64,000 bases of DNA, taken from the IMG/VR virus record IMGVR_UViG_3300046477_000550. One strand, given 5' to 3'. Below, one piece after another: positions 9,663-59,696 of the stretch. The position numbers were made by a program, and so were the translations under genes. Below the pieces are notes generated by a model, which saw nothing but the letters and a program-made list of their open reading frames with translations, made no database searches and had not been told where the DNA came from. The DNA is from a virus. Position 1 is the first letter of the stretch, and the number at the start of each line of letters is the position of its first letter.

Positions 9663-10964
9663 ATGGCGCACGCGGAGAAGCGCACCTACGACAAGCGTGC
9701 ACGAAAGTGGCGCTGGCGCGGAAGGTACAAGAAGCCCGACGGCAGCTGGGGCTCCGTCTCCCGCGACGACAACAAGCAGCCGTTCTACACGGAGAAGGCC
9801 GCCGAGGACTTCGCCGCCGGCCTCGAAACCGACGTGCGCCGCAAGGTGTACCTCGACCCGAAGGACGGCCGCATCACGGTCGGCGAGTGGTCGGAGTTGT
9901 GGATCGAGTCGGTGGAGCTGGCCAACCGCAGCGACAAGACGTACCGGCAGCGCCTGCGGTCCGTGATCCTCCCCAGGTGGGAGGCGACCGCGATGGCCGA
10001 CGTGTCCGAAGTCGTCGTGAAGATCTGGGAGCAGCAGCTGCGTAAGCGGTACAAGCCCCGCTATGTCAAGTCGGTCATGTCGGTGATGCGGGTCATGTTC
10101 GACGACGCCGTCGCCTCGAAGGTCCGCGCCGACAACCCGGTCCCCACGCTGAAGGCGCGCCGTCGCGGCAAGTACAAGGGCAAGCCGAAGAAGGACGAAA
10201 CCGTCCTCGCGACCCCGCGCCAGGCCTTGCTGCTGGCCCGCAATGCCCGGGAGATGCGCGGCGTCGTCGGCTACGGCCTCGTCCTCACGATCGCCTACTG
10301 CGGGCTGCGCATATCGGAGGCGGCCGGCCTGCGCCGGGAACATCTGGTCCTCGAAGACCACGGGCAGGGCTTCCGGCTGCTGGTGGAGGAGCAGCACCAG
10401 TACGTCGACGGCAAGCCCGCCCAGGTCGATCCGAAGTACGGGAGTTCGGGCAGCATCATCCTGCCGCCGTTCCTCGCCGAGCTGCTGCGCGAGGTGCTGG
10501 CCTCGCACAAGTCGCCCTGGGTGTTTCCGTCGGCCAACGGCAAGAAGATGTCGACGTCTGCCTACTTCTACTCGGACATCTGGCGCCGCTGGGTGGATGG
10601 CCACACGGCCACACCCGACAAGCTCGGCCGCCCGGCGCGGCTCCCGGACATGAAAGCGGTCGCCGGGATCGAGGACATGGTGCCCCACGGGCTGCGCCAC
10701 AGCATGAAGACGTGGCTCGACGAGCTGAAGCACCCGCGGGTTGCGGTCGAGGAGCGGATGCGGCACGTTATCCCTGGAGTTGAGGGGACCTACAGCCACA
10801 CGACGCTGCCGATGGAGCTGGATATCGCGGCGGATCTGCAGAAGCTGTGGGAGGCCTCGGCGGGAGTGAAGGACCACCACCGGGAGTGGGAGGAGCCTCG
10901 CCCGCGGCGCTCGGAGCGCGGACCGAAAGTGGATCTCCCAGAAATCTCCCAGGACGAAGAATGA
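9663..10964 (+). CDS. int: tyrosine integrase
   Basis: 433 aa with the catalytic signature GLRISEA...HGLRHSMKTWL...GTYSH. Its 3' end faces a non-coding, palindrome-rich region. Confidence 0.9.
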   Translation: MAHAEKRTYDKRARKWRWRGRYKKPDGSWGSVSRDDNKQPFYTEKAAEDFAAGLETDVRRKVYLDPKDGRITVGEWSELWIESVELANRSDKTYRQRLRSVILPRWEATAMADVSEVVVKIWEQQLRKRYKPRYVKSVMSVMRVMFDDAVASKVRADNPVPTLKARRRGKYKGKPKKDETVLATPRQALLLARNAREMRGVVGYGLVLTIAYCGLRISEAAGLRREHLVLEDHGQGFRLLVEEQHQYVDGKPAQVDPKYGSSGSIILPPFLAELLREVLASHKSPWVFPSANGKKMSTSAYFYSDIWRRWVDGHTATPDKLGRPARLPDMKAVAGIEDMVPHGLRHSMKTWLDELKHPRVAVEERMRHVIPGVEGTYSHTTLPMELDIAADLQKLWEASAGVKDHHREWEEPRPRRSERGPKVDLPEISQDEE

Positions 10965-18473: not shown

Positions 18474-20147
18474 TCAGGCGGCGCGGTTCTCCCACGGCCA
18501 GGCAGCGTCACGGGACGCTTCGAGCAAGGGGATCATCCGGAAGGCGGCGTCGGTGAGCCCGCCGAACGTGTGCCGCTGTCCGTGACCGGATGGCGCATGC
18601 CCGGCCTGGTACCCGGCGAGATTCCAGGTGTAGAGCGGCGTCGTCTGCGGGATGGACTGGTCGACTTCGGCGTGGTCGTGCCCGGCCTGCTCGTCGGTGA
18701 CGATGACGACGCGGTCGTGGCCGTGGAACTCCTGCCGGAGTGCAGCCGCCGTGTCGGTGCCGCCGCCGAGGAACCAGCCGCCGTCCTTCCACTTCTTCAC
18801 GTCGCTGAGGAGCGATCCGCCGCGGGTGAGCGGGAACGCCTTCGTCTTCGCGCCCGGAGCGTCGTTCACGTAGTAGCGGGCGCTGGAGAAGGACACGACG
18901 TCGGCCGTGGCGCAGCGTCGGCCGAGGGCGATCCCGAACAGGGCCGCGGCGTCCCAGCGCATCAGTGACCCGTCCTTGGAGAACGCGTCGTCCATCGAGC
19001 TGGACGTGTCCACCAGGATCAGCGTCCGGCCGCCGAGCTGCGGAATGTTGGCGAGTGACGCGGTCAGCGCCTTCTCCAGTGCGTGACCCCACCGCAGGGA
19101 CGGCGCCGCGTTGAACGCGGAGTAGAACCGCATCGGCAACTGCCGGGACTTCGCGACCTGCTCCGGGTCAGCGAGCATCGACACGACCTGTGCCGCGACC
19201 TTGTCGGAAACTCCAGCCTCGTCGAAGTTGCGCAGGTTCCGCAGCCGGGCCATGAACGGCATCGACGGGATGACCGCCTCCCACGCGGCCTTGTCCATCG
19301 GGCCCTGGAGCCAGCCGGCCACTGCTTCCCAGGTCATCTCCGCCATCGCCAGACGTCCGGGCGCGTCCAGCAGGATGCGGCGCCGGTCGGCCACGGGGTG
19401 CGCCATCAGGTTCGCCCGCCACCGGATTGTCATCAGCGACTCGGAGATCTCTCCGTTGCGGCCGTGGCGGCGGTCGATCGCATGCCGGAACAGGTCGCCC
19501 TGCCACGCCTTGCCCGTAGCCGGGGCCGCATGCACGAGTTCGAGGACGTCGCCGAAGCGGTAGCCCTTGGTCGCGGTGTCGTATTTCAGCAACGACCGCT
19601 CCGAGTAGAGCCGCTGGACGGCGTCGGCGATGCCGCGCTTCACCGGCTTGGGCAGCTTGCGGCCGTAGCGGGACGTCCAGTAGCCGAGCAACTCCCCCGG
19701 CTCGTCAGGACGCTGGAGGACGACGTCGATGACGCGACGGTTCCAACCGCCGTTCGTGGACGCGTCGGCCGCAGTCTCGCGGTTCCATCCCGCAGGGTCC
19801 GCTCCCTTGTCGCCTTCGAGCCGCGCCTTCACGAACTCGGCCGCACCGACGATCGCCGCAGTCCGCATGTTCCCTTCGCCGCGCAGCCAGCCGAGCAGGC
19901 CGACCGTCCACTCGGGGTCTTCGACGGCGAGCTGCCGGACGAGCTGGGTGAAGCGGTCGTCGCGGTCGCCGCCCTTCTCGTAGAACGCGTCCTGGCCAAC
20001 GAAGTTGGAGACGGCGAGCAGGAACAGCTCGGAGCGCGCGTCCCGGAGATGCCCGGTGGCGCCCTGGTGGGTGAGGGTCCGCTCCCCGGTGGTGGTCACG
20101 GGCGAGTGGGCGGCGGGTCGGGTCGAGCGCGTGTTGAAGCGCGACAT
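18474..20147 (-). CDS. rsr: Ro60 orthologue Rsr (TROVE domain plus vWA/MIDAS)
   Basis: 557 aa. TROVE-like N-terminal two thirds, then a vWA domain with the MIDAS motif LILVDTSSSMDD. Start taken as ATG 20147 after GAGGGG. Flanked by Y-RNA-like elements. Confidence 0.85.
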   Translation of the reverse strand: MSRFNTRSTRPAAHSPVTTTGERTLTHQGATGHLRDARSELFLLAVSNFVGQDAFYEKGGDRDDRFTQLVRQLAVEDPEWTVGLLGWLRGEGNMRTAAIVGAAEFVKARLEGDKGADPAGWNRETAADASTNGGWNRRVIDVVLQRPDEPGELLGYWTSRYGRKLPKPVKRGIADAVQRLYSERSLLKYDTATKGYRFGDVLELVHAAPATGKAWQGDLFRHAIDRRHGRNGEISESLMTIRWRANLMAHPVADRRRILLDAPGRLAMAEMTWEAVAGWLQGPMDKAAWEAVIPSMPFMARLRNLRNFDEAGVSDKVAAQVVSMLADPEQVAKSRQLPMRFYSAFNAAPSLRWGHALEKALTASLANIPQLGGRTLILVDTSSSMDDAFSKDGSLMRWDAAALFGIALGRRCATADVVSFSSARYYVNDAPGAKTKAFPLTRGGSLLSDVKKWKDGGWFLGGGTDTAAALRQEFHGHDRVVIVTDEQAGHDHAEVDQSIPQTTPLYTWNLAGYQAGHAPSGHGQRHTFGGLTDAAFRMIPLLEASRDAAWPWENRAA

Positions 20148-20183
20148 GAAAAAGCCCCTCACGTGGAGGGGAGGTCCAGCAGT

Positions 20184-20327
20184 GGGTGCCCGAGATCAAG
20201 GTCGGCTGCGGAGACGAAGCGCTCTGGGCCGCTGAGCTACGGAAGCCGTCAGGCTCCCGACGGGATTCGAACCCGCGTCTCTCTCTTAGCAGGAGAAGTA
20301 TCCGCCGCCTGCGCACCGGGCACCCCC
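20184..20327 (-). ncRNA. YrlA-like Y RNA with a circularly permuted tRNA-like module
   Basis: Minus strand shows a terminal helix GGGTGCCCG/CGGGCACCC and a T-arm GCGGGTTCGAATCCCGT (20260-20276). A closed acceptor stem GGGAGCC-TGAC-GGCTTCC lies at 20241-20258 and a D-arm GCTCAGCGGCCCAGAGC at 20221-20237. Ends are approximate. Confidence 0.75.
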
Positions 20328-20333
20328 GATGCT

Positions 20334-20409
20334 GTGCCTCCCGAGATCAAAGACGGGACCGGTATCACTTTTCCAAAGAAGTAACCGGACCCTGCGCACC
20401 GGGAGGTGC
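20334..20409 (-). ncRNA. second, small Y-RNA-like hairpin (YrlB-like)
   Basis: Terminal helix CCTCCCG/CGGGAGG. Shares the motifs CCCGGTGCGCAGG (5' side) and TTGATCTCGGG (3' side) with the larger RNA. Ends are approximate. Confidence 0.55.
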
Positions 20410-28429: not shown

Positions 28430-31400
28430 TCAGCGCTTGTAGGCGGCGTATGTCGTGGAGTTGCGCATGCCGAGCTTGAGCATCGACGACTCGACGACGT
28501 CCCGCAGATTTCGTTCCGTCATGACGTGGCCCTCGACAGTGAGGTGGAGGTGGTTGTGGACCACCGCTCCGCCCCCGCCGCCCGCCACGGCGAGGCCGGC
28601 ACCCCCGAACCCTCCTTCCCCCACCACGGAACTCGCCAGCCGGCCGATGGCCCGCGTGGCGTGCTCGGCGCCGCTGTCGACCCCCTTGGCGAGGCCTTGC
28701 GGGATCCAGGTTCCGATCTCCGCGAATACGGTGCTGGGGGACTTGATGCCGAGGGCCTTCTTGATGGCCTTCTCCATAGATTTGGCGATCTTCATCATCT
28801 GCTTCTCGATCGCCTTCTCCTGCGACTGCAAGCCCTTGACGAGACCCTGGGCGGCCTTGATTCCGGCCCCATACATACTGTCCGCAACGGCCTTCCCTGC
28901 ACTGGTGGCAGCAGACTTGGTGGTGTTGTTCAGGCTGTTGATCTGCTTGATCTGGGACGCCGACGCGTTCTGGAGCGCCGCCGCGGTGGCCCCGCCCTGG
29001 TCCACGCCGGCCGCCGCGATCTGTGCGATCAGATCGGAGGACAGCCCCTTCTTCTTCAGAGCCTGCAACTCGGCCGCGAACTGCACGGCCTTGGCCATCT
29101 GGTCGCGCATTTTGTTGACGACGTCCTGCGCGGTCAGCGCGAAGCCTTCCTGGGGGGCGTCGGTGACGATGGAGAAGCCCTGCATGACGCCGTCGGCAAC
29201 CGACTTGACCTCGTCGGACCATTCCTTCTGGAGGGTGGCCAGCCTGGTCTGCGCCGACTTCAGCTTCGCGGCGACACTGTCCCTCTTGGCCGCGAGGCCG
29301 CGCAGGATCTTGTCTTCCTTGTGGGCGTAGCTCTCAAGGCGCTTGATGGCCTTCTCGTGAGAAGCCACCCACTTGTTGGAGACGCCCTTGTGGCCCTTCT
29401 GGTCGGCGACCTTGTTGTAGGTCTGGATGAGCAGCGACTCGATGCGCCGCGTTGCGGCCTTCACCTTCGCCATCGACCCGGTGAGGCCGTCGACGAGGCC
29501 CTCGTTGATGTAGATGCCGAGGCTGCGGAACACTTTCGACGGAGAGCTGATACCCATGGCGCTCTTGAAGGCACTGACTGCGCCGTGCGCGATGTTGGAC
29601 AGCACTGACGACACGGAGACCGATTTGATGCCGCTTATCAGACCTTCGATCAGGGCCCGTCCCGCGCTGGTCAGCAGGTTGGCGAAACTGGAGCCCACAT
29701 GCCGGAGCAGCGAGACCGTGTCGCTCATCTGCTGGCCGACCAGCTTCTTCAGGTCGCCCCAGACCCGGGACCACTTGCCGGTGATCAGATCGAGAACCAG
29801 GCCGATCGTGTTCAGCACCAGGTGCATCGCGGTCGTCGTGATGCCGGAGATGAGCGCCCAGGCCGTTTTCACGGTGGCCCCGACGACGCGCCACGTCGAC
29901 TTCCAGGACGACGCCAGGATCGACAGCATCGGCCGCATGACGTTCGTCCACCAGGTTTTCGCGATCAGCCCGACGGCTCCGAAGGCGACCTTGGCGATCG
30001 TTTCGATCTGCGCGCCGTGGACCTTCCACCAGGCGGTCAGGTCCGCGATCCGGGCCTTCACCCACGCGATCACGTTCGTGTTGAACCAGTGGACGAGCGT
30101 CTGTACGCCCTTGACCATCGAGTTCCAGGCGCCGACGAAGGTCTGCTTGTGCGCGGTGAACCATGTCACCAGTGCTTGGAAGCCCCGCTTGATGAGCGGG
30201 AGCACGCTGGTCACGAACCAGCGGACGACTGTTGCTGTGGCCTGCCAAGCCACCTTGAAGACGGTGCCCAGAACGCGGGCGAGATCGTTGACGATCCGGC
30301 GGAACGTTGCGAAGTGGTTGTAGGCGTATACGAGGGCCGCGCCCACGGCCATGATTCCGGCCGCGATCAGCAACTCCGGCCCCAGGGCCGCGTACAGGGC
30401 ACCCCCGAGGGCGATGACCGCTGCGACCAGGGTGGTGCCCAGCGCGCCCGCGAGGGCCATCACGGCACCCTTGTGCTGCGACAGCCAGGTCACCCCGGTG
30501 CGGATCCAGCCGAGGAACGTCTGCACATAGGGCAGCAGCATCGTGCCGAGGCGGATGCCCATGTTGACCAGGGCGGCCTCGGTCTGCTGCAGCTGAGTGC
30601 GGAACGTCTTCTGCGTCTTCGCCCACGATGCGTCGAACGCTGATTCCTTCGACGCCTTCTGGATGTCCCCGAACTTGGTCTTCAGACCGTCCAGGTTCTG
30701 CATCAGCGACATGATCGCCTTGTCGCTGCGGCCACCGCCGAAGATCTTCGCCAGGACCGAATCCGCCTCCGTGCCGCTGACCCCGGCCTTCTCCAGCGAC
30801 GTCTTCAGATCGGTGAGCGCCACGTAGAGGCCGTCAGGCTTCTTCAAGTCCATGGCCAGCCGGTTCTGCGTGATCCCGGCCTTTTCCATCGCCGACTGCA
30901 TCGCCGCGCTCGACGCATGCACATCCGTCGATGCCACACCGAGCGCCGTCAGCATTTTCGTGGCCTTCTGCGACGGCGTGGTCATCATCGAGATGCCCAT
31001 CGTCAACCGCGTCGCCGCAACCTCCGCGCTGTTGCCGCGGTCCGTCAGGTAGGCGAGGCCGGAACCCATCGAGTTGACGGAGATCCCCATCTGCGCGGCC
31101 GTCGGCGCCCAGTTCTTGATGGACTCGTTGAAGTCCTGGAAACGCATGTCGCCCTGGCCGACGATGGCATTCAGGCTGGCCATCGTCTGCTTCGCCGACG
31201 TCGCCGGGAAGTTGAACGCCTTCATCACGCTGGATAGCGAGTAGGTGGTGTCCTCCAGCGACGCGCCGGAGATCTTCGCCTCCTTCGCGGACTCCGTCAC
31301 CACCGCCAGCGCCGACTTCAAGTCCAGGCCGGCGGAGATCGGGTGGTAGAGGGCCTCGGCCATCTGCGTGCCCGTGAAGCCGACCTGGGTGCCGAGCTTC

Positions 31401-31705
31401 AGCACCTGCTCGTTGAGCTGAGAGGAGGTCAGCCCAACCTTCTTCAGCTGGTCGTTCGTCAGCCCGGCCGCCGTCTGGAGGCGGGTCATGTGCTCCTGGA
31501 AGTTGGCGGCGGCCTTCACCGATGCGACGCCGATCGCGATCGTTGCCGCACCGGCGATCATGCCGAACCCGGCGAGTTTCTTGAACGCGCCGCCCATACG
31601 GGAGGTGGCGGCCTCGCCCTCGGCGGCGGCCCCCTTCATGCCCGCCTTGAAGGGGGCAGTCACCGCGCGGAGGACTACGTAGAGGTCTCCGACTTCACTG
31701 CCCAT
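28430..31705 (-). CDS. tail tape measure protein
   Basis: 1091 aa with a helical Ala/Lys/Gly-rich sequence and a central multi-TM-like stretch. Sits after the G/GT genes. Confidence 0.9.
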   Translation of the reverse strand: MGSEVGDLYVVLRAVTAPFKAGMKGAAAEGEAATSRMGGAFKKLAGFGMIAGAATIAIGVASVKAAANFQEHMTRLQTAAGLTNDQLKKVGLTSSQLNEQVLKLGTQVGFTGTQMAEALYHPISAGLDLKSALAVVTESAKEAKISGASLEDTTYSLSSVMKAFNFPATSAKQTMASLNAIVGQGDMRFQDFNESIKNWAPTAAQMGISVNSMGSGLAYLTDRGNSAEVAATRLTMGISMMTTPSQKATKMLTALGVASTDVHASSAAMQSAMEKAGITQNRLAMDLKKPDGLYVALTDLKTSLEKAGVSGTEADSVLAKIFGGGRSDKAIMSLMQNLDGLKTKFGDIQKASKESAFDASWAKTQKTFRTQLQQTEAALVNMGIRLGTMLLPYVQTFLGWIRTGVTWLSQHKGAVMALAGALGTTLVAAVIALGGALYAALGPELLIAAGIMAVGAALVYAYNHFATFRRIVNDLARVLGTVFKVAWQATATVVRWFVTSVLPLIKRGFQALVTWFTAHKQTFVGAWNSMVKGVQTLVHWFNTNVIAWVKARIADLTAWWKVHGAQIETIAKVAFGAVGLIAKTWWTNVMRPMLSILASSWKSTWRVVGATVKTAWALISGITTTAMHLVLNTIGLVLDLITGKWSRVWGDLKKLVGQQMSDTVSLLRHVGSSFANLLTSAGRALIEGLISGIKSVSVSSVLSNIAHGAVSAFKSAMGISSPSKVFRSLGIYINEGLVDGLTGSMAKVKAATRRIESLLIQTYNKVADQKGHKGVSNKWVASHEKAIKRLESYAHKEDKILRGLAAKRDSVAAKLKSAQTRLATLQKEWSDEVKSVADGVMQGFSIVTDAPQEGFALTAQDVVNKMRDQMAKAVQFAAELQALKKKGLSSDLIAQIAAAGVDQGGATAAALQNASASQIKQINSLNNTTKSAATSAGKAVADSMYGAGIKAAQGLVKGLQSQEKAIEKQMMKIAKSMEKAIKKALGIKSPSTVFAEIGTWIPQGLAKGVDSGAEHATRAIGRLASSVVGEGGFGGAGLAVAGGGGGAVVHNHLHLTVEGHVMTERNLRDVVESSMLKLGMRNSTTYAAYKR

Positions 31706-41405: not shown

Positions 41406-42950
41406 TCAGGCGGCGTGCTCATCGACACCACCTCCCGGCAGTGATTCGAGCGCCTCACACAGGCGGCGCCGGTACAGGTCGCGGGCGGACTCGCGGGGTG
41501 GGTCGGCGCCCGGCGGCGGCTGACCTGCGGCCACCGCCTGCAACTGGGGCGGAACTGGGACCGGTTCCGGCTTCTGGACCGTTACCGGTTCGCCGTGTGC
41601 CGGGTCGGCCGGTTCCAAGGCGGTGCCACGCAGCTTGTTGGCGATGTTCGCCTTGCTCGCAGCGTCCATGTCCGCCCACTTGACCAGGTTTTCCCGGTCC
41701 ACGAGCACGGCCTGGTCGCCACCGTCGACGGCAGGTTCGCCAATGTCGGCGCGGTAGCGGTCGAGCGTCCAGGAGCCGTTACGGAGCCGTGTGTCGCGGA
41801 TCTTCTCGACGGTCTCACTGTCGCGCATGTCGACATCACGGAACTTCAGCTTCCAGCCCTCGACGCCGAACCCGTTCTTCGCCAGGTGGAAGTTGAGGGC
41901 TTCCAGGACCAGTTCGGCGAGCGGCTGGCAGGTGTTGAGCATGAAGGTGCGGTCCTGCGCCTCACCCGTTCCGCCACCCAAGTTGCCGCTTTCGATGATG
42001 CCGACCTTCGACGGGGGCACACCGTAGGAGGCGATGATCTCGTCGCGCTTCTGGTTGAGGAACGCCAGGTAGTCCATGGTGCGGGACTGCGACAGCTCAT
42101 CGACTGTCGCGCCGCCCTTGGTGTTGATCGGGTTGCCGATGTTGCGGGGTCCGATGTTGCGCTGTTGATACTGCGCGTTCCACCGGTTGATGTCCCCCGG
42201 CGAGGCCCCGGCCGGGTGGTCCACGTGCAGGACCGGCGGGCAGCCCTTCCGGAAGATCTCCTTCGACGTAGCAGCCGAGAAAAGCCACGACACGATCGGC
42301 AGCATCGCGGCCTGCGTCGGGCTGACACCGAACACCCCGGAGCGCGGCGAATCCAGCGAGATGTGGATGACGTCGCGCGGCTCGAACGTGGCCCGCTGGC
42401 CCAGCTCGGTCACCTGCACATAGCTGGTGATCGTGCCGTGCTCGTCGGCGATCGGCAGCATCGACGGGCAGTCCAGCGAATACAGGGCCACCGGCTGCTT
42501 ACCGACCCACACCACCTCAATGAACGCGTCACCGAAGACGAGGAGGTCGGTGATGACGCCGCGGAGGATCTGCCGGATGTTCTCCCGCGGATTGCAGTAG
42601 CCGATCATCCGCTCCAGCAGCAGCACCTGCTGCGGCTTGTCCGGCTGCTCGTCGTCGCCTTCACCGTCATCGGTATCCCAGTCGGTGACGAGACCGCCCG
42701 CGGTGATGGTGCGGGAGATGGCGTTGACGGACGCCCACGACCAGGGGCAGGCGAGATAGGCCTCGTAGAGCTGGTTGAGCGTCGAGCGGCGGTCGGACTG
42801 GGTGGCCGCGCCGATGCCCTGGTTGGATTCGGTGAGGCCGCCGGGGCTGATGCCGTACTCGTAGCCCGCACGTTCCGGAAGCTTCGCCGGGGCGGTCTCC
42901 AGTACTTCGTCGCTGGAGCGCAGGCCGTTCCACCAGGTGCGCAGACTCAT
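41406..42950 (-). CDS. portal protein
   Basis: 514 aa coupled to the terminase (ATGA overlap), with portal-like length and sequence. Confidence 0.85.
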   Translation of the reverse strand: MSLRTWWNGLRSSDEVLETAPAKLPERAGYEYGISPGGLTESNQGIGAATQSDRRSTLNQLYEAYLACPWSWASVNAISRTITAGGLVTDWDTDDGEGDDEQPDKPQQVLLLERMIGYCNPRENIRQILRGVITDLLVFGDAFIEVVWVGKQPVALYSLDCPSMLPIADEHGTITSYVQVTELGQRATFEPRDVIHISLDSPRSGVFGVSPTQAAMLPIVSWLFSAATSKEIFRKGCPPVLHVDHPAGASPGDINRWNAQYQQRNIGPRNIGNPINTKGGATVDELSQSRTMDYLAFLNQKRDEIIASYGVPPSKVGIIESGNLGGGTGEAQDRTFMLNTCQPLAELVLEALNFHLAKNGFGVEGWKLKFRDVDMRDSETVEKIRDTRLRNGSWTLDRYRADIGEPAVDGGDQAVLVDRENLVKWADMDAASKANIANKLRGTALEPADPAHGEPVTVQKPEPVPVPPQLQAVAAGQPPPGADPPRESARDLYRRRLCEALESLPGGGVDEHAA

Positions 42951-44469
42951 GGGGCTTCCACCGTCCCCCCGGCGCGCGGCGCGTCATCGTCGTCGAACCA
43001 CCAGGCGTCATCGTTCGGTGCGGTCTCCGCGGGGCGGACGGCCATCGTCGGGCCAAGCGGCTGCAGCACCTCGCCGATGGGCGCGGTCGGAACGTCGTCG
43101 AGGATGACGAATTCCGGGCCGGTGCCGAGGTTGGACAAGAGATAGCGAACAGCGTCGCTCGCATGATCATCTGCTGTGGTGTCGGCGTCCTCGGGGTCGC
43201 CCTTGGTGGCGTGCGGCAGGTTCGACAGCTCCCGGTACAGCTCGGTGACCGTCGAGAACATGTGCAGCTTCGGGCAGGTCGTCCAGCCGTGAGCCCGGTG
43301 GTGCGCACAGGCGGGCGCCTCGCCGAGGTAGGAGTGGACTCGCTGCCAGCCGTTGACGCGGCTCCCGGCGCCCTTGCCGGCCGGGGAGAGGTGTACGCCG
43401 TTGTCGGCGTACACCGAGGAGATCGGTTTGGCGTCGCCGCGGGTGGCCCACATGGCGTCGTCGGCGTACCGCACGGCGACATGTTCGCCGTCGGCTTCCG
43501 CTGCGAGGATCTGCTTGGCCTGCTCGTTTTCGCCGATGCCCCGCTGGTATATCTCCCGGTAGACCCAGACACGGCCGTCTTCGTCAACGGCTGCCCACAG
43601 GACAGCCCAGGGGGCGCTGAAGCCCCAGTCGATGCCGTTGTACCGCCGCCACGAGGCGGGCAGTGCGATCGGCTCGATGACGTGCCGGTCGCGCTTCAGC
43701 TCGGGGAACATCATTCCGGCGAACACGTCCCAGTCACCGTCCAGGAAGGCGGAGCGGAGTTTGCCGTCGAGGGCTTGGAGGTCTTGGGCGTACTCGGGGT
43801 TGACGTGCGGGTTGTCGGACAGCTTGGACGGGATGAAGCGCACGGTGCGGTTGCGGATGTCGGTGACGACGTTCGCCCCGTAGTTCGTGGGCTCGATATA
43901 GCGGGCCTTGACCGCGCCGTGGCCGGGGCCTCCCGGGTTGGTTCCGGAGCGGATCCCGAGGACGGGGATGTCGCGGCGGCCGGAGCGGAGGCGGGACTCC
44001 AGGAAGGAGCACACGTCGGGCGGGGTCAGGGTCCGCTCGTCGAAGATGAGCAGCTGGTACTGGCCGCCCTGACGCCGGGTGGCGTCCTGGACAGTCTCGG
44101 CATACCGGAACATGATCAGGCTGCCGTTCGGGAACCGCAGCTCGTACTCGGTACCGTTCCAGCGAGCCCCAAGATCCTTCGCGAAGTTGAGGTTGACCAA
44201 CTCGGCGATGAGCGACTCTTTCAGCTCGCCGTAGGTGCGGCGGAAGGCGCCGACGCGCAGCCCCGGGTACTGCATACACTCCCGGATCGCGTGCGCGGTC
44301 AGCGCCCTACTTTTCCCCCACCAGCCGCCCCACCGAACAGCACATCGAACTCGGTCGCGGCGTGGAACTCGTGCTGCTTCGGTGTCGGTATGTAGCCGAG
44401 CTGCCCGAATACGTCCTTCGGCTCGAAGGCCTGGGCTGCGAACTCAGCCCATTCGAGGGTGGCGGACAT
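42947..44469 (-). CDS. terminase large subunit, interrupted: needs a -1 shift at 44317-44311
   Basis: The N-terminal 56 codons (AAGGAGG RBS, ATG 44469) end ...FGGAAGGGKVGR-stop. The -1 frame continues GGGKSRALTAHAIRECMQYPGLRV... into the 442-aa ORF 42947-44275. Confidence 0.8.
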
Positions 44470-48635: not shown

Positions 48636-48650
48636 GGTCACCGCCCGTCG

Positions 48651-48722
48651 TTGGCCCGGCAGGACTTGAACCTGCAACTCGCGGCTGGGGGCCGCTGCTC
48701 TGCCGTTTGAGCTATCGGGCCA
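48651..48722 (-). tRNA. non-canonical tRNA-like gene (5-nt or C33 anticodon loop; Gly-CCC-like at best)
   Basis: Acceptor TGGCCCG/CGGGCCA, D-arm GCTC-AAACGGCA-GAGC and T-arm GCAGG-TTCAAGT-CCTGC look normal. The anticodon arm is GCGGC-CCCCA-GCCGC, and there is an extra nucleotide at positions 8-9. Confidence 0.55.
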
Positions 48723-48774
48723 AAGCGACCGCCGGTTCGCGGGGCGAAGATCCGCGACTAACCGGCGACCACCC

Positions 48775-48859
48775 GAGGACGCTCTAGGCCACTGAGCTAC
48801 CAGCAGGCCGCGCGCGGCCCTTTCTGTGGCTGGACGGGATTTGAACCCGCGCCTTCCCC
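48775..48859 (-). ncRNA. circularly permuted tRNA-like element, paralogous to the tRNA-like module of the Y RNA at 20.2 kb
   Basis: Minus-strand order: GGGGA, AGGC, T-arm GCGGG-TTCAAAT-CCCGT, CCAGC, GC hairpin GGCCG-CGCG-CGGCC, GCTGG, TA, D-arm GCTC-AGTGGCCTA-GAGC, G, TCCTC. A 38-nt nested hairpin follows at 48730-48767. Confidence 0.6.
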
Positions 48860-48863
48860 TACG

Positions 48864-48937
48864 TTGGCCCGCCAGGTCTCGAACCTGGCGCCTCCGCCTT
48901 ATCAGGACGGCGCTCTAACCAGATGAGCTACGGGCCA
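48864..48937 (-). tRNA. tRNA-Ile (GAU), no encoded CCA
   Basis: Clean cloverleaf: acceptor TGGCCCG/CGGGCCA, D-arm GCTC-ATCTGGTTA-GAGC, anticodon arm CCGTC-CTGATAA-GGCGG, T-arm CCAGG-TTCGAGA-CCTGG. Confidence 0.85.
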
Positions 48938-49044
48938 CCACTGTCTATCGGCTTCGTCCAGGCTAGCTGTTGCCCGACCCTGGGCTGATCGGTTTCCTGG
49001 TTCCGCCGTCGGCCGCGACCCTCGACGCGGCGGACGGCGGACGA

Positions 49045-49416
49045 CTATGCGCGGCCTTGGCCGTAGCGCCGCATCGACTTCTCGACGGAGTCCCGCAGCG
49101 TGCCCTCGTCGATGACGCGGCCCTCAACGTGCACGGTCACGGTGGCGTCCGGGTGGGGCGGGAGGTCGCGCGCTGCCCGGTAGGCGTTGATGCTCTTCTC
49201 GCCGGAGACGACCTGCTCGAAGGTGACGGAAGCCTCGCGCGCCTGCCGGTTGTGCTGCACCAACTCACAGACCGGGCAGTGTTCGACGCCGACGTGCAGG
49301 ACGAAGGCGTGACCGCACTCCTGGCACGCCCCTTTGAGGATCTCCCCCGGGAGCGGCTGGTACGTACAGAGTGCGGGCTGCTCAGCGTCGGCCATCACGG
49401 GCTCCTCGCTGCTCAT
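49045..49416 (-). CDS. hypothetical zinc-ribbon protein
   Basis: 123 aa with CQECGH...CPVC. ATG overlaps the upstream stop (ATGA). Confidence 0.65.
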   Translation of the reverse strand: MSSEEPVMADAEQPALCTYQPLPGEILKGACQECGHAFVLHVGVEHCPVCELVQHNRQAREASVTFEQVVSGEKSINAYRAARDLPPHPDATVTVHVEGRVIDEGTLRDSVEKSMRRYGQGRA

Positions 49417-59078: not shown

Positions 59079-59696
59079 TCAGTTCCAGGGGGCGGCGTTG
59101 CGCTGGCCGCGAATCCAGGCGGTGAGGCGGGTGTCGTCGACGGTGGTTATGCCGACGCGTTCGGCGAACTCGCGGGCGTCTTTGGTGAAGTGGGAGGTGG
59201 TGACGACGGCCGCCCTCTGGCAGCGGTGGATGTCGCGGTAGGTGCCGTTGACGCACTGCACGTCTCCGGATTTGACGTTGTTGCCGATGGCGTACCGCTT
59301 GGCCTGAATGAGGATCCGGTGCTGTGACCTGCTCCAGGGCTGCCACCAGATCGCGTCGGGGGTGGTGGCGAGGACGTCGGCGGCAAGGTCTCCGGCGCCG
59401 CCGACGACCTGCACGTCGGTGCATCCGTCGCGGCGGCACAGGTCGGCGATGTAGTGCTCGAACTGGCCGGCCGACAGACGGTGGGGGTCGGTGGCGCCGG
59501 ATAGGCGTGGCCGTCGTCGCAGTAGAGATCGCAGCCGCTTTCGGAATGCGACCGCGGGGACGAGCACGAGCGCGCCGACCGTGAGGGTGATGACGAGGTG
59601 GTCGGCGACCCACTGTGCGGCGACGATCGCGAGCACGACGAAGACGACGACGGGCCACAGGCTGGTGCGGGTCGCGTGGCGGTTGGCTGCGGACAT
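59079..59696 (-). CDS. membrane-anchored Mrr-like restriction endonuclease-fold protein
   Basis: Two N-terminal TM segments, then GAGDLAADVL...ILIQAKRY (D...QxK of the PD-(D/E)xK fold). Confidence 0.65.
   Translation of the reverse strand: MSAANRHATRTSLWPVVVFVVLAIVAAQWVADHLVITLTVGALVLVPAVAFRKRLRSLLRRRPRLSGATDPHRLSAGQFEHYIADLCRRDGCTDVQVVGGAGDLAADVLATTPDAIWWQPWSRSQHRILIQAKRYAIGNNVKSGDVQCVNGTYRDIHRCQRAAVVTTSHFTKDAREFAERVGITTVDDTRLTAWIRGQRNAAPWN

What the first reader, a model, noticed from the sequence alone, without database searches (positions are those of the whole stretch)
48651..48937. Phage tRNA cluster: one genuine tRNA plus a circularly permuted tRNA-like element paralogous to the Y-RNA module
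Only the tRNA-Ile(GAU) at 48864-48937 folds canonically.

The gene at 48651-48722 has good acceptor, D and T arms. Its anticodon arm, however, is GCGGC-CCCCA-GCCGC (a 5-nt loop, or a 7-nt loop with C33), and it has an extra nucleotide at positions 8-9.

Between them, at 48775-48859, the order is: 3' anticodon-stem strand, T-arm, acceptor stem closed by a GC hairpin, D-arm, 5' anticodon-stem strand.

Its T-arm and D-arm are near-identical to those of the Y RNA at 20.2 kb. The T-arm region CGCGGGTTC-R-AATCCCGTC matches at 19 of 20 positions. The D-arm region GTAGCTCAG-Y-GGCC-Y-AGAGCG matches at 20 of 22 positions. The two are therefore paralogues.

This copy lacks the Ro-helix motifs and is followed by a nested 38-nt hairpin (48730-48767). 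tRNA finders would not report it.

It could be a second effector-type tRNA mimic, a decoy for tRNA-targeting host nucleases or modification enzymes, or a processing scaffold. ATC is the common Ile codon in GC-rich hosts. That argues against simple codon supplementation as the role of the Ile tRNA.
Basis: seen in the sequence. Interest (0 to 1): 0.8.

Follow-up and report, generated by a model that had tools for sequence, protein, structure and literature searches.

The report
Stand-alone Y-RNA-type tRNA mimic between tRNAs
Between two tRNA genes of a temperate Streptomyces-type phage lies a 141-base RNA gene folding like a tRNA with rearranged ends, related to the tRNA-like part of bacterial Y RNAs but lacking their Ro-protein docking stem, and its function is unknown.

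Summary
All features are on the minus strand. tRNA-Ile(GAU) at 48864-48937 is canonical. The gene at 48651-48722 is a damaged tRNA-Trp orthologue. The 141 nt between them (48863-48723) fold as anticodon-like stem, T arm, closed acceptor arm and D arm, followed by a long 3' hairpin.

This layout is already known: it is the tRNA-like domain of YrlA-type Y RNAs. The element's arms are closer to Streptomyces-phage YrlAs than to any of 653 tRNAs. Its only hits among 50,697 phage records are to Gordonia phage VanLee, in a YrlA beside a Ro-like gene.

It differs from every described YrlA. It has no terminal Ro/Rsr-binding helix, no V arm and no UACUUC motif. It lies 28.5 kb from the phage's own rsr-YrlA-YrlB locus. 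It is flanked exactly by tRNAs.

One orthologue was found, in a mosaic relative. It is 91% identical, against 51-68% for the flanking non-tRNA sequence. All 11 substitutions spare base pairing (P about 0.03). The upstream tRNA there is a different one. Closer relatives lack the whole cassette.

Best reading: a YrlA-derived, Rsr-independent tRNA mimic released by tRNA processing. Its function is inferred only. It is a new variant of a known kind, rare, and of moderate interest.

The parts
49003..49040 (-). Terminator-like hairpin directly after the stop codon (49045-49047) of the upstream 116-164 aa zinc-finger-like gene. It marks the upstream edge of the tRNA cassette.
   Evidence: Read from the sequence. 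The hairpin is conserved with changed stem sequence in L090. It is present in relatives that lack the cassette: L231 matches 100% over 63 nt and L232 matches 82%.
48938..49002 (-). Cassette leader. It holds a possible -10 element, TAGCCT at 48960-48965 (TAGTCT in L090), inside the only conserved block, ACAGCTAGYCTG.
   Evidence: Alignment A2. The leader is 51% identical overall. The sigma-70 consensus scan found nothing, so a promoter here is inference only.
48864..48937 (-). Canonical tRNA-Ile(GAU). No CCA is encoded.
   Evidence: ARAGORN. Rfam tRNA at 60.3 bits.
48723..48863 (-). The whole inter-tRNA RNA, 141 nt: a permuted cloverleaf plus a 3' hairpin. It is the predicted product after the 3' end of tRNA-Ile and the 5' end of the downstream tRNA are matured.
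   Evidence: Sub-threshold Rfam YrlA match, 30.5 bits, local E = 2e-4. 90.9% identity to the L090 orthologue. 44 pairs, 100% paired in both sequences. The processing boundaries are inferred.
48855..48859 (-). GGGGA. It corresponds to the 3' strand of a tRNA anticodon stem and pairs with UCCUC at 48775-48779.
48834..48850 (-). T arm, GCGGG-UUCAAAU-CCCGU. It is preceded by a 4-nt variable loop, AGGC.
48800..48833 (-). Closed acceptor-like arm. It has a 5-bp stem CCAGC/GCUGG, an A-rich internal loop CACAGAAA, and a 6-bp GC hairpin at 48805-48820.
   Evidence: The G.U closing pair becomes A-U in L090. Read on the plus strand, the hairpin at 48806-48819 followed by CTTTCT scores as terminator-like.
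48781..48797 (-). D arm, GCUC-AGUGGCCUA-GAGC. It is preceded by U8-A9 equivalents and followed by a G26 equivalent.
   Evidence: The D loop GGCCYAGAGCG is characteristic of Streptomyces-phage YrlAs.
48775..48779 (-). UCCUC. It corresponds to the 5' strand of a tRNA anticodon stem.
48723..48774 (-). Long 3' hairpin of about 20 bp with an AGU bulge and apical loop AUCUUCGCC. It abuts nucleotide 1 of the downstream tRNA.
   Evidence: Three one-sided, wobble-compatible changes against L090. No significant similarity to Ro-helix strands.
48651..48722 (-). Degenerate tRNA, orthologue of tRNA-Trp(CCA). The cloverleaf body is intact. There is an extra nucleotide between the acceptor and D stems, and the anticodon loop is shortened from CUCCAAA to CCCCA. 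ARAGORN calls it Gly(CCC).
   Evidence: The sequence is identical in two independent Logan assemblies, so this is not a sequencing error.
20185..20324 (-). For reference: the phage's Rsr-linked YrlA. It has the terminal helix motifs CGGUGCGCAGG and UUGAUCUCGGG, a UACUUC motif with V arm, and the T, acceptor and D module.
   Evidence: Custom model score 67.4 bits.
20337..20406 (-). For reference: a second, YrlB-like Y RNA with the same helix motifs and no tRNA-like module.
   Evidence: The same tandem arrangement occurs in the Streptomyces loci L188-L190.
18474..20162 (-). For reference: the rsr (Ro60/TROVE) gene, immediately downstream of the two Y RNAs.
   Evidence: Pfam TROVE, E = 1.8e-14. 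PHROG 850, E = 3.5e-50.

Best explanation
The element is a stand-alone descendant of the tRNA-like domain of a YrlA-type Y RNA, carried inside an accessory cassette with the order leader, tRNA, mimic, tRNA.

**Shown**
- It keeps the YrlA-type T arm, closed acceptor arm and D arm.
- It keeps every nucleotide of the class-I tRNA tertiary core.
- It has no Ro/Rsr-binding terminal helix, no V arm and no anticodon loop.
- It is conserved, with its pairing intact, in the one orthologue found, although the upstream tRNA there is a different one.

**Inferred**
- The cassette is transcribed as one precursor.
- The enzymes that mature the flanking tRNAs release a 141-nt RNA running from 48863 to 48723. 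Cleavage after the tRNA-Ile discriminator sets its 5' end. RNase P cleavage at the 5' end of the downstream tRNA sets its 3' end.
- The RNA folds into an L shape, stabilised by the 3' hairpin.
- It acts through the D/T elbow and tRNA body as a tRNA mimic that does not need to be tethered to Rsr.
- Having no anticodon loop and no free CCA end, it would be a ligand that can be neither decoded nor cut in an anticodon loop. It could occupy whatever factor recognises the YrlA or tRNA body. It might thereby compete with YrlA, or soak up tRNA-binding enzymes or nucleases.
For: **Family link**
- Rfam YrlA scores the element 30.5 bits (local E = 2e-4). That is higher than the 25.7 bits it gives the genuine Rsr-adjacent YrlA of the same window.
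- A custom model built from 52 Rsr-linked YrlA modules scores the element 52.8 bits and its orthologue 55.7 bits.
- In a nearest-neighbour test, the 20 best matches to its arms are all YrlAs, scoring 35-46 of 56. The best of 653 tRNAs scores 34-35.
- The only hits among 50,697 phage records are two copies of the Gordonia phage VanLee genome. The match lies in a YrlA upstream of a Ro-like gene, where it is mis-annotated as tRNA-Arg.

**Structure**
- The MFE fold of the L090 copy reproduces the permuted cloverleaf.
- In the window copy, the cloverleaf lies 2.3 kcal/mol above the MFE.
- The tRNA core equivalents U8, A14, G15-C48, G18, G19, U54, U55, C56, A58, G26-A44 and G22-G46 are all present, as read from the sequence.

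**Constraint**
- The RNA is 90.9% identical to L090. The leader is 51% identical, the upstream hairpin 68% and the downstream tRNA 81%.
- The differences are 11 transitions and one 2-nt indel in a loop. Seven substitutions fall in unpaired positions. Four fall in stems, and all four keep the pair.
- The probability that 11 random transitions break no pair is 0.03.

**Independence from flanks**
- The upstream tRNA is Ile in the window and an initiator-like Met in L090.

**Loss of Rsr docking**
- The motif pairs are exact only at 20.2-20.4 kb.
Against: - Only two independent sequences exist. There is no double-sided compensatory change, so the structural support is suggestive rather than strong.
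- The element is rare. Strict-pattern scans of IMG/VR, GTDB representative genomes and JGI metagenomes found one orthologue and no others.
- Five related phage contigs lack the whole cassette, so it is dispensable.
- The neighbouring tRNA-Trp is decaying in the window. This shows that the cassette is not under uniformly strong selection.
- The whole-RNA folding energy is not better than shuffles, z = -1.0.
- Expression, processing, stability and any binding partner are all unobserved.
- The custom model scores tandem-tRNA junctions as high as true YrlAs. The model scores alone therefore do not prove membership.
Confidence: 0.5

Rival explanations
1. The element is a non-functional relic. An illegitimate recombination between a YrlA gene and a tRNA array, helped by near-identical T arms, left a truncated YrlA module in the spacer. 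It looks conserved only because the cassette moved between phages recently.
For: - It is rare: two lineages only.
- The cassette is absent from close relatives.
- The adjacent tRNA-Trp is degenerating in the window.
- It has lost the Ro helix, the V arm and the UACUUC motif.
- There is no compensatory double change.
Against: - The element is the best-conserved piece of the cassette. It is 90.9% identical, against 51-68% for the adjacent non-tRNA segments and 81% for the downstream tRNA. A recent whole-cassette transfer would leave all of these equally similar.
- The upstream tRNA has been replaced while the element was kept.
- None of 11 substitutions breaks a pair, P = 0.03.
- All tRNA-core positions are intact.
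Confidence: 0.25
2. The element is still a complete Y RNA that binds the phage or host Rsr through a non-canonical helix. That helix would form either by pairing of the 3' part of the upstream tRNA with the 3' flank, as the Rfam alignment draws it, or from the 3' hairpin, making the RNA a whole-molecule circular permutation of YrlA.
For: - Rfam aligns 48745-48886 end to end with the YrlA model, with a GGUUCG/CGGAUC outer helix.
- The pairwise alignment with the 20.2 kb YrlA extends weakly into both flanks.
- The hairpin contains a CGAA and a GCGGAU-CUUC string that resembles the YrlA string GCGGAUACUUC.
- The phage encodes Rsr.
Against: - In L090 the upstream tRNA is a different one, and the proposed pairing is not conserved in register.
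- The clade's invariant motifs are absent.
- Similarity of the hairpin strands to Ro-helix strands is at chance level, p = 0.25-0.72 and p about 0.09.
- The outer-helix strand is sequestered in a much stronger local hairpin.
Confidence: 0.1
3. The element acts in cis on the tRNA operon, not in trans. It could be a structured spacer that guides or times RNase P and 3'-end processing. It could be a partial terminator or attenuator ahead of the second tRNA. It could be a terminator for antisense transcription.
For: - It is bounded exactly by tRNA ends.
- A 20-bp GC-rich hairpin ends 1 nt before the downstream tRNA and is followed by UUU.
- On the plus strand, the inner hairpin plus a T-run is the only terminator-like site in 900 bp. 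Its T-run is better in L090.
Against: - A spacer or terminator does not need a complete tRNA tertiary core, nor YrlA-specific D- and T-arm sequences.
- tRNA arrays elsewhere in the fetched loci have spacers of 5-100 nt with no such element.
- GC3 analysis supports no plus-strand gene nearby.
Confidence: 0.08
4. The element is a permuted tRNA gene. Its transcript would be circularised or ligated and then opened at the acceptor arm to give a functional tRNA, as in Cyanidioschyzon. Alternatively, it is an attP-type copy of a host tRNA 3' half.
For: - The gene order, 3' half, linker, 5' half, is that of permuted tRNA genes.
- The acceptor arm carries an insertion where an intervening sequence would lie.
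- The phage is temperate: it has an integrase at 9663-10964.
Against: - Joining the ends gives no plausible 7-nt anticodon loop with U33.
- Only 5 of the 7 acceptor pairs can form.
- The scanned window ORFs gave no RtcB or other RNA-ligase family hit. That bacteria lack a splicing endonuclease is background knowledge, not something tested here.
- The arms are of YrlA type, not like any tRNA.
- The integrase is 38 kb away.
- The element lies between two complete tRNA genes.
Confidence: 0.03

Closest known systems
YrlA (Rfam RF02553), the tRNA-like bacterial and phage Y RNAs (Chen et al. 2014, PMC4201824; Wang et al. 2018, 10.1101/312249)
   Same: - Same permuted order: T arm, closed acceptor stem-loop, D arm, with the anticodon-stem equivalent formed by the flanks.
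- Near-identical T-arm and D-arm sequences, including the actinophage-specific D loop GGCCYAGAGCG.
- Same tRNA tertiary-core nucleotides.
- The acceptor-stem sequence CCAGCC/GGCUGG is shared with YrlAs in L043 and L101.
- Extended acceptor arms also occur in some Rsr-linked YrlAs, for example L050 and L238.
   Different: - No terminal helix formed by the 5' and 3' ends, and no Rsr-binding motif.
- No V arm and no UACUUC motif.
- A short 4-nt variable loop, as in a class-I tRNA.
- A long 3' hairpin in place of the terminal helix.
- It lies 28.5 kb from rsr and directly between two tRNA genes.
- By design, Chen et al. discarded hits overlapping annotated tandem tRNA genes and reported only sequences within 4 kb of rsr.
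Mycobacterium smegmatis YrlA, processed by RNase P and the CCA-adding enzyme (PMC4201824)
   Same: - An actinobacterial YrlA module handled by tRNA-maturation enzymes.
- It shows that this fold can enter the tRNA-processing pathway.
   Different: - There, RNase P cuts inside a 7-bp acceptor stem of an Rsr-bound RNA.
- Here, the acceptor stem is 5 bp plus an internal loop.
- Here, the inferred cuts are at the flanking genuine tRNAs.
mascRNA/MALAT1 and MEN-beta tRNA-like RNAs
   Same: - A tRNA-like small RNA of unknown function, released from a longer transcript by tRNA-processing enzymes.
   Different: - They are eukaryotic and in normal, non-permuted order.
- They are unrelated in sequence. 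The Rfam mascRNA hits in the window, about 17 bits, are noise lying on the tRNA-Ile and on the YrlA.
Stable non-tRNA RNAs encoded in the phage T4 tRNA cluster (species 1 and 2, rnaC/rnaD). This is from my own recollection and was not checked here.
   Same: - Small stable RNAs co-transcribed with phage tRNAs and excised by the same processing.
- Their function is still unknown.
   Different: - No sequence or structural relationship was tested.
- T4 is unrelated, and those RNAs are not YrlA-like as far as I know.
Circularly permuted tRNA genes of Cyanidioschyzon merolae, and two-piece (permuted) tmRNA genes
   Same: - The 3' half of the tRNA-like fold is encoded before the 5' half.
   Different: - Those are matured into molecules with a free acceptor end that function in translation.
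- Here the acceptor arm is closed.
- No anticodon loop can be reconstituted.
- ARAGORN's tmRNA search finds nothing.

Membership tests
YrlA / bacterial Y RNA (RF02553) | tRNA-like module in the order T arm, closed acceptor stem-loop, D arm, with the family's conserved arm sequences | tested here: met
   - Rfam alignment.
- Custom model at 52.8 bits.
- Arms nearest to YrlAs, not to tRNAs.
- The only INPHARED hits are to a YrlA beside a Ro-like gene.
YrlA / bacterial Y RNA (RF02553) | Score at or above Rfam's gathering threshold (69 bits) | tested here: not met
   - The element scores 30.5 bits.
- The genuine Rsr-adjacent YrlA of the same window scores only 25.7 bits.
- None of 10 other loci passes.
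- The threshold is therefore uninformative for this clade.
YrlA / bacterial Y RNA (RF02553) | Terminal helix formed by the 5' and 3' ends and carrying the Ro/Rsr-binding motif. The general form is GNCGAAN0-1G. In this clade the invariant strings are CGGUGCGCAGG and UUGAUCUCGGG. | tested here: not met
   - The two motifs occur together as exact minus-strand pairs only at 20.19-20.40 kb.
- The hairpin strands are not significantly similar to the Ro strands.
- The helix proposed by Rfam is not conserved in L090.
YrlA / bacterial Y RNA (RF02553) | Encoded next to an rsr (TROVE) gene; within 4 kb in Chen et al. 2014 | tested here: not met
   - rsr is at 18474-20162, 28.5 kb away.
- No TROVE gene is present in the L090 locus.
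- The L090 contig is not among the 80 best Rsr-encoding viral contigs. This last point is inconclusive.
YrlA / bacterial Y RNA (RF02553) | V arm with the YUAY/UACUUC region upstream of the T arm. It is present in all 64 Rsr-linked modules collected, because the collection filter required it. | tested here: not met
   - Compare the 64 sequences with CGUAGGGGAAGGC in the element.
- The UACUUC-type motif was one of the criteria used to collect the 64, so its universality among them is not an independent finding.
YrlA / bacterial Y RNA (RF02553) | Physical binding to Rsr and stabilisation by it | not testable with these tools
   Needs RIP, gel shift or similar experiments.
Canonical tRNA (RF00005) | Cloverleaf in normal 5'-to-3' order, with an anticodon loop and a free acceptor end | tested here: not met
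   - ARAGORN finds nothing at 48723-48863.
- Rfam finds only a 21-nt T-arm fragment at 14.4 bits.
Canonical tRNA (RF00005) | Conserved tertiary-core nucleotides: U8, A14, R15-Y48, G18, G19, T54-A58, C56 and G26 | tested here: met
   Read directly from the sequence, using the arm assignment.
Permuted tRNA gene (Cyanidioschyzon type) | 3' half before 5' half, such that circularisation restores a 7-nt anticodon loop and a 7-bp acceptor stem | tested here: not met
   - The order of halves is met.
- The flanks CGUA and GGGUGGU give no U33-containing loop.
- Only 5 acceptor pairs form.
tmRNA, including two-piece permuted forms | tRNA-Ala-like acceptor and T domain plus a tag reading frame | tested here: not met
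   - ARAGORN's tmRNA search of the window finds none.
- There is no Rfam tmRNA hit.

The most novel reading that the evidence does not exclude
The RNA is the first example of a YrlA-type tRNA mimic that has been freed from Rsr. It would be made as part of a tRNA operon and released by RNase P and 3'-end processing. It would work as a body-only tRNA decoy that cannot be cleaved, having no anticodon loop and no CCA end.

Its target would be one of two things:
- the still-unidentified factor that recognises the conserved D and T stems of YrlA;
- host tRNA-targeting defence nucleases or toxins.

If the second, the cassette, with its unusual anticodon loops, together with the phage's Rsr-YrlA-YrlB locus, would form one tRNA-damage counter-defence toolkit. 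For context, see PMC10264068, PMC11555353 and PMC7790460.
Probability: 0.15. Interest if true: 0.75.

Novelty: new variant of a known kind. Interest (0 to 1): 0.45.

Why it matters
What the tRNA-like domain of YrlA does is an open question. Its D and T stems are almost invariant, and the literature proposes that they bind an unknown factor (10.1101/312249).

A natural version of that domain with no Ro-binding stem, which appears to be under constraint, would show that the domain can matter on its own. It would also give a clean reagent for finding its partner: a 141-nt RNA that should not bind Rsr.

The finding also exposes two annotation blind spots:
- The published YrlA survey excluded, by design, hits overlapping annotated tandem tRNA genes and hits more than 4 kb from rsr (PMC4201824).
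- tRNA finders mis-call YrlA 5' halves as tRNAs. Examples are ARAGORN's "tRNA-Ser" in the window and the annotated "tRNA-Arg" of phage VanLee.

If the relic explanation is right, the finding is a minor curiosity about recombination between Y RNA genes and tRNA genes.

Tried and rejected
1. **Full-length Y RNA using the tRNA-Ile T arm as its outer helix (the Rfam alignment).** Rejected. The upstream tRNA is different in L090 and the pairing is not conserved.
2. **Whole-molecule circular permutation of YrlA, with the 3' hairpin as a closed Ro helix.** Sequence similarity is at chance level. A second idea, that the 3' region is the 5' part of a following Y RNA, gave p of about 0.09. It is unsupported.
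3. **attP or a tRNA 3'-half copy.** The integrase is at 9663-10964, 38 kb away.
4. **Recent duplication of this phage's own YrlA.** The nearest neighbours are YrlAs of other phages.
5. **Origin from an ordinary tRNA.** The best of 653 tRNAs scores below 20 YrlAs.
6. **Search for more orthologues.**
   - Three IMG/VR pattern scans, one GTDB scan and one metagenome scan were run.
   - One protein-anchored viral scan, one protein search with six contig look-ups and two blastn searches of INPHARED were also run.
   - Together they yielded one orthologue (L090) and two contigs identical to the window (L229, L230).
   - Exact-match patterns would miss diverged copies.
7. **Whether L090's phage has rsr.** Its contig is not among the 80 best of 223 viral hits. 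This is inconclusive, because the rest of that contig could not be read.
8. **Custom covariance model as a discriminator.** It scores tandem-tRNA junctions as high as YrlAs, as Chen et al. warned.
9. **Thermodynamic z-scores.** They are uninformative, at -1.0 and 0.0.
10. **Sigma-70 promoter scan.** It found no site, as expected for a high-GC actinophage.
Full report
**What is in the sequence**

All features lie on the minus strand. ARAGORN reports tRNA-Ile(GAU) at 48863-48937 and an irregular tRNA at 48650-48722. Rfam gives them 60.3 and 44.6 bits.

The irregular tRNA has an intact acceptor stem, D arm and T arm. It has three nucleotides between the acceptor and D stems, and the anticodon arm GCGGC-CCCCA-GCCGC.

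Nothing is called in the 141 nt between the two genes. Read 5' to 3' on the minus strand, that stretch is:
- CGUA;
- GGGGA;
- AGGC;
- the T arm GCGGG-UUCAAAU-CCCGU;
- CCAGC;
- an A-rich loop, CACAGAAA;
- a GC hairpin, GGGCCG-CGCG-CGGCCU;
- GCUGG;
- UA;
- the D arm GCUC-AGUGGCCUA-GAGC;
- G;
- UCCUC;
- a helix of about 20 bp with an AGU bulge, which ends one base before the downstream tRNA.

With that arm assignment, every nucleotide of the class-I tRNA tertiary core is present. These are the equivalents of U8, A9, A14, G15-C48, G18, G19, G22-G46, G26-A44, U54, U55, C56 and A58.

**Context**

The window is a 69% GC temperate siphophage-type genome:
- portal at 41406-42950;
- large terminase at 42947-44275;
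- tape-measure protein at 28430-31705;
- integrase at 9663-10964.

At 18474-20162 it encodes a TROVE/Ro60 (Rsr) protein. Two Y RNAs lie immediately upstream of rsr. One is a YrlA with a tRNA-like module, at about 20185-20324. The other is YrlB-like, at about 20337-20406. Each is framed by the strings CGGUGCGCAGG and UUGAUCUCGGG. As paired minus-strand matches, these strings are exact only there. Streptomyces chromosomes and soil contigs show the same arrangement of YrlB, YrlA and rsr.

**What the element is**

A local Rfam search gives a full-length but sub-threshold YrlA match at 48745-48886: 30.5 bits, E = 2e-4, against a gathering score of 69. The undoubted YrlA beside rsr scores only 25.7 bits. 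The Rfam threshold is therefore not informative for this clade.

I collected 64 Rsr-linked YrlA modules from viral, genomic and metagenomic loci. Two tests used them:
- *Custom model.* A covariance model built from 52 of the modules scores the window's YrlA at 67.4 bits, the element at 52.8 bits and its orthologue at 55.7 bits. That model also scores tandem-tRNA junctions highly, as Chen et al. warned (PMC4201824). It is therefore not sufficient on its own.
- *Nearest neighbours.* This test is more telling. The 20 best matches to the element's two arms are all YrlAs, scoring 35-46 of 56. The best of 653 distinct tRNAs scores 34-35. The closest YrlAs, in L043 and L101, even share the acceptor stem CCAGCC/GGCUGG.

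There is independent support. The only blastn hits of the 141-nt RNA among 50,697 phage records are two copies of the Gordonia phage VanLee genome. The match lies 225 nt upstream of a "Ro-like RNA binding protein" gene. It is a YrlA whose 5' half is annotated there as tRNA-Arg.

[quoted passage not shown] The permuted architecture is thus the known YrlA domain, not a new fold.

**How it differs from described YrlAs**

- It has no terminal helix formed by its 5' and 3' ends, and neither invariant motif of its clade.
- It lacks the V arm and the UACUUC motif, which were present in (and required by the filter for) all 64 Rsr-linked modules.
- It has a 4-nt variable loop and a clean 5-bp anticodon-like stem, so it is more tRNA-like than YrlA.
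- It carries a long 3' hairpin.
- It is 28.5 kb from rsr and sits exactly between two tRNA genes.

I tested whether the 3' hairpin is a disguised Ro helix. Its strands are no more similar to the Ro strands than random window segments are, with p = 0.25-0.72. A weaker idea, that the 3' region is the 5' part of another Y RNA, gave p of about 0.09.

The outer helix drawn by Rfam uses the T arm of tRNA-Ile. It cannot be general, because the orthologue has a different upstream tRNA.

**Comparative evidence**

Pattern scans of IMG/VR found one orthologue, L090, in IMGVR_UViG_2541046981_000004. The order there is an initiator-like tRNA-Met(CAU), then the element, then a canonical tRNA-Trp(CCA). This shows that the window's odd tRNA is a degenerate tRNA-Trp. 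Its anticodon loop went from CUCCAAA to CCCCA, and it gained one extra base at positions 8-9.

The two phages are mosaic relatives. Identity across the cassette is:

| Segment | Identity |
|---|---|
| Upstream terminator hairpin | 68% |
| Leader | 51% |
| Upstream tRNA (not orthologous) | 58% |
| The element | 90.9% |
| - its module | 92.9% |
| - its 3' hairpin | 87% |
| Downstream tRNA | 81% |

The differences within the element are 11 substitutions, all transitions, and one 2-nt indel in a loop. All 44 proposed pairs are standard pairs in both sequences. Four pairs change on one side only and stay paired. None changes on both sides. Eleven random transitions would leave all pairs intact with probability 0.03.

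RNAfold's minimum-energy structure of the L090 copy is the proposed permuted cloverleaf. For the window copy, that fold lies 2.3 kcal/mol above the minimum.

Strict-pattern scans of 185,579 representative genomes and of the JGI metagenomes returned only Rsr-linked YrlAs and one tandem tRNA. Two Logan assemblies carry a sequence identical to the window.

Five related contigs keep the upstream gene. Those checked by blastn (L231-L233) also keep its terminator hairpin. All five lack the whole cassette. The cassette is therefore an accessory insertion of about 350 bp, running from about 49000 to 48650.

**Most likely mechanism**

The following is shown:
- a YrlA-derived tRNA-like module with an intact tRNA core;
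- no Rsr-docking helix;
- conservation, with structure preserved, across a swap of the neighbouring tRNA.

The following is inferred from established tRNA biology:
- The cassette is transcribed from its own leader. The only conserved block there contains TAGCCT/TAGTCT, but no consensus promoter was found.
- Cleavage after the tRNA-Ile discriminator sets the 5' end of the element. No CCA is encoded, so an RNase Z-type cut is expected.
- RNase P cleavage at the 5' end of the downstream tRNA sets its 3' end. This releases a 141-nt RNA.
- That the damaged tRNA-Trp keeps an intact body fits a continuing role as a processing signal.

Beyond that, the proposal is that the RNA acts as a free tRNA-body mimic, through the same D/T surface that is nearly invariant in YrlAs. 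It has no anticodon loop and no CCA end. It could therefore occupy a tRNA-body-binding or YrlA-binding factor without being decoded or cut in an anticodon loop. This last step is speculation.

tRNA-Ile(GAU) reads the phage's dominant Ile codon: 272 ATC, 10 ATT and 4 ATA. Rare-codon supply is therefore not an obvious role for the cassette. Phage tRNAs as counter-measures to tRNA-targeting defences are a documented alternative (PMC10264068, PMC11555353).

**Rivals**

- *Young relic of recombination between YrlA and a tRNA array.* This is the main rival. It is favoured by the element's rarity, its dispensability and the decaying neighbour. It is disfavoured by the conservation gradient and the substitution pattern.
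- *Cryptic Rsr-binding Y RNA.* Less likely, for the reasons given above.
- *Purely cis-acting spacer or terminator.* Less likely, because such an element would not need a complete tRNA core.
- *Permuted tRNA gene, or attP remnant.* Least likely.

**Verdict**

The paralogy with the Y RNA module is supported and sharpened. The kind of element is known (the YrlA tRNA-like domain). This Rsr-helix-less copy, embedded between tRNAs, is a new variant that published surveys excluded by design (PMC4201824). The evidence for function rests on two sequences. I rate interest at 0.45.

Noticed in passing
window 20251-20324 (-); also L297 362-433 (Gordonia phage VanLee gene 125): tRNA finders and annotators mis-call the 5' half of YrlA as a tRNA. 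ARAGORN reports a "tRNA-Ser(GCU)" inside the window's YrlA. The VanLee GenBank record annotates "tRNA-Arg(tct)" 225 nt upstream of its Ro-like gene. Both are the V-arm and T-arm part of a Y RNA.
   Followed up: partly
window 20337-20406 (-): A second, YrlB-like Y RNA lies just upstream of YrlA. It is a simple long hairpin framed by the same CGGUGCGCAGG and UUGAUCUCGGG strings. The same tandem arrangement occurs in Streptomyces chromosomes (L188-L190) and in soil contigs (L191, L193, L194).
   Followed up: partly
17 Streptomyces-type YrlA flanks, listed: The segment that Rfam aligns to the GNCGAA motif (GGCGGAUAC) covaries with the 3' strand. Examples are GCGGA/UCCGC, GGGGA/UCCCC, AUCCU/AGGAU and AUCCG/CGGAU. 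It is therefore a helix, not a motif. The truly invariant strings in this clade are CGGUGCGCAGG, UACUUC and UUGAUCUCGGG. This may explain why Rfam's YrlA model scores these RNAs far below its threshold.
   Followed up: partly
window 48651-48722 (-): The orthologue of tRNA-Trp(CCA) has a 5-nt anticodon loop and one extra base between the acceptor and D stems. It otherwise keeps a perfect tRNA body. The sequence is identical in two independent Logan assemblies. It is either a pseudogene or a non-decoding tRNA-shaped processing signal.
   Followed up: partly
L090 3194-3267 (-): The upstream tRNA of the orthologous cassette looks like an initiator. It has the anticodon CAU, three G-C pairs at the bottom of the anticodon stem, and a mismatched 1-72 pair (A.C). 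However, it has C33 instead of U33. Together with the window's damaged Trp loop, the tRNAs of this cassette show unusual anticodon loops.
   Followed up: no
window 48806-48819 (+), then CTTTCT; L090 equivalent GGCCGCGTGCGGCC, then TTTTCT: Read on the plus strand, the inner hairpin of the acceptor-like arm followed by a T-run looks like an intrinsic terminator. It is the only such site in 900 bp. The T-run is longer in the orthologue. GC3 analysis supports no plus-strand gene nearby.
   Followed up: no
L231 3336-3420; L232 2387-2560; L233-L236: Related phage contigs keep the upstream gene, and those checked by blastn (L231-L233) also keep its terminator hairpin. All pass straight to the next gene. 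The tRNA-mimic-tRNA cassette is a presence/absence polymorphism of about 350 bp.
   Followed up: yes
L014 3162-3206, L019 8355-8397, L030 10179-10242, L064 2718-2985: Other viral contigs carry YrlA-like modules beside or inside tRNA clusters, with no TROVE gene detectable in the fetched locus (up to 10 kb downstream). Unlike the element studied here, they keep terminal stems, and L019 has a GUCGAAAG motif. L064 has two tandem Y-like RNAs framed by GCUACUG...UUACAC and CGACUCGC. Y RNAs not linked to rsr may be more common than the published survey, which required proximity to rsr, could show.
   Followed up: partly
window 59079-59696 (-); L235 4569-5402 (-): The phage encodes an Mrr-type restriction endonuclease domain protein (Pfam Mrr_cat, E = 2e-22). 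A related contig carries an IS605 OrfB/Cas12f-like TnpB gene near the position where the cassette would be.
   Followed up: no
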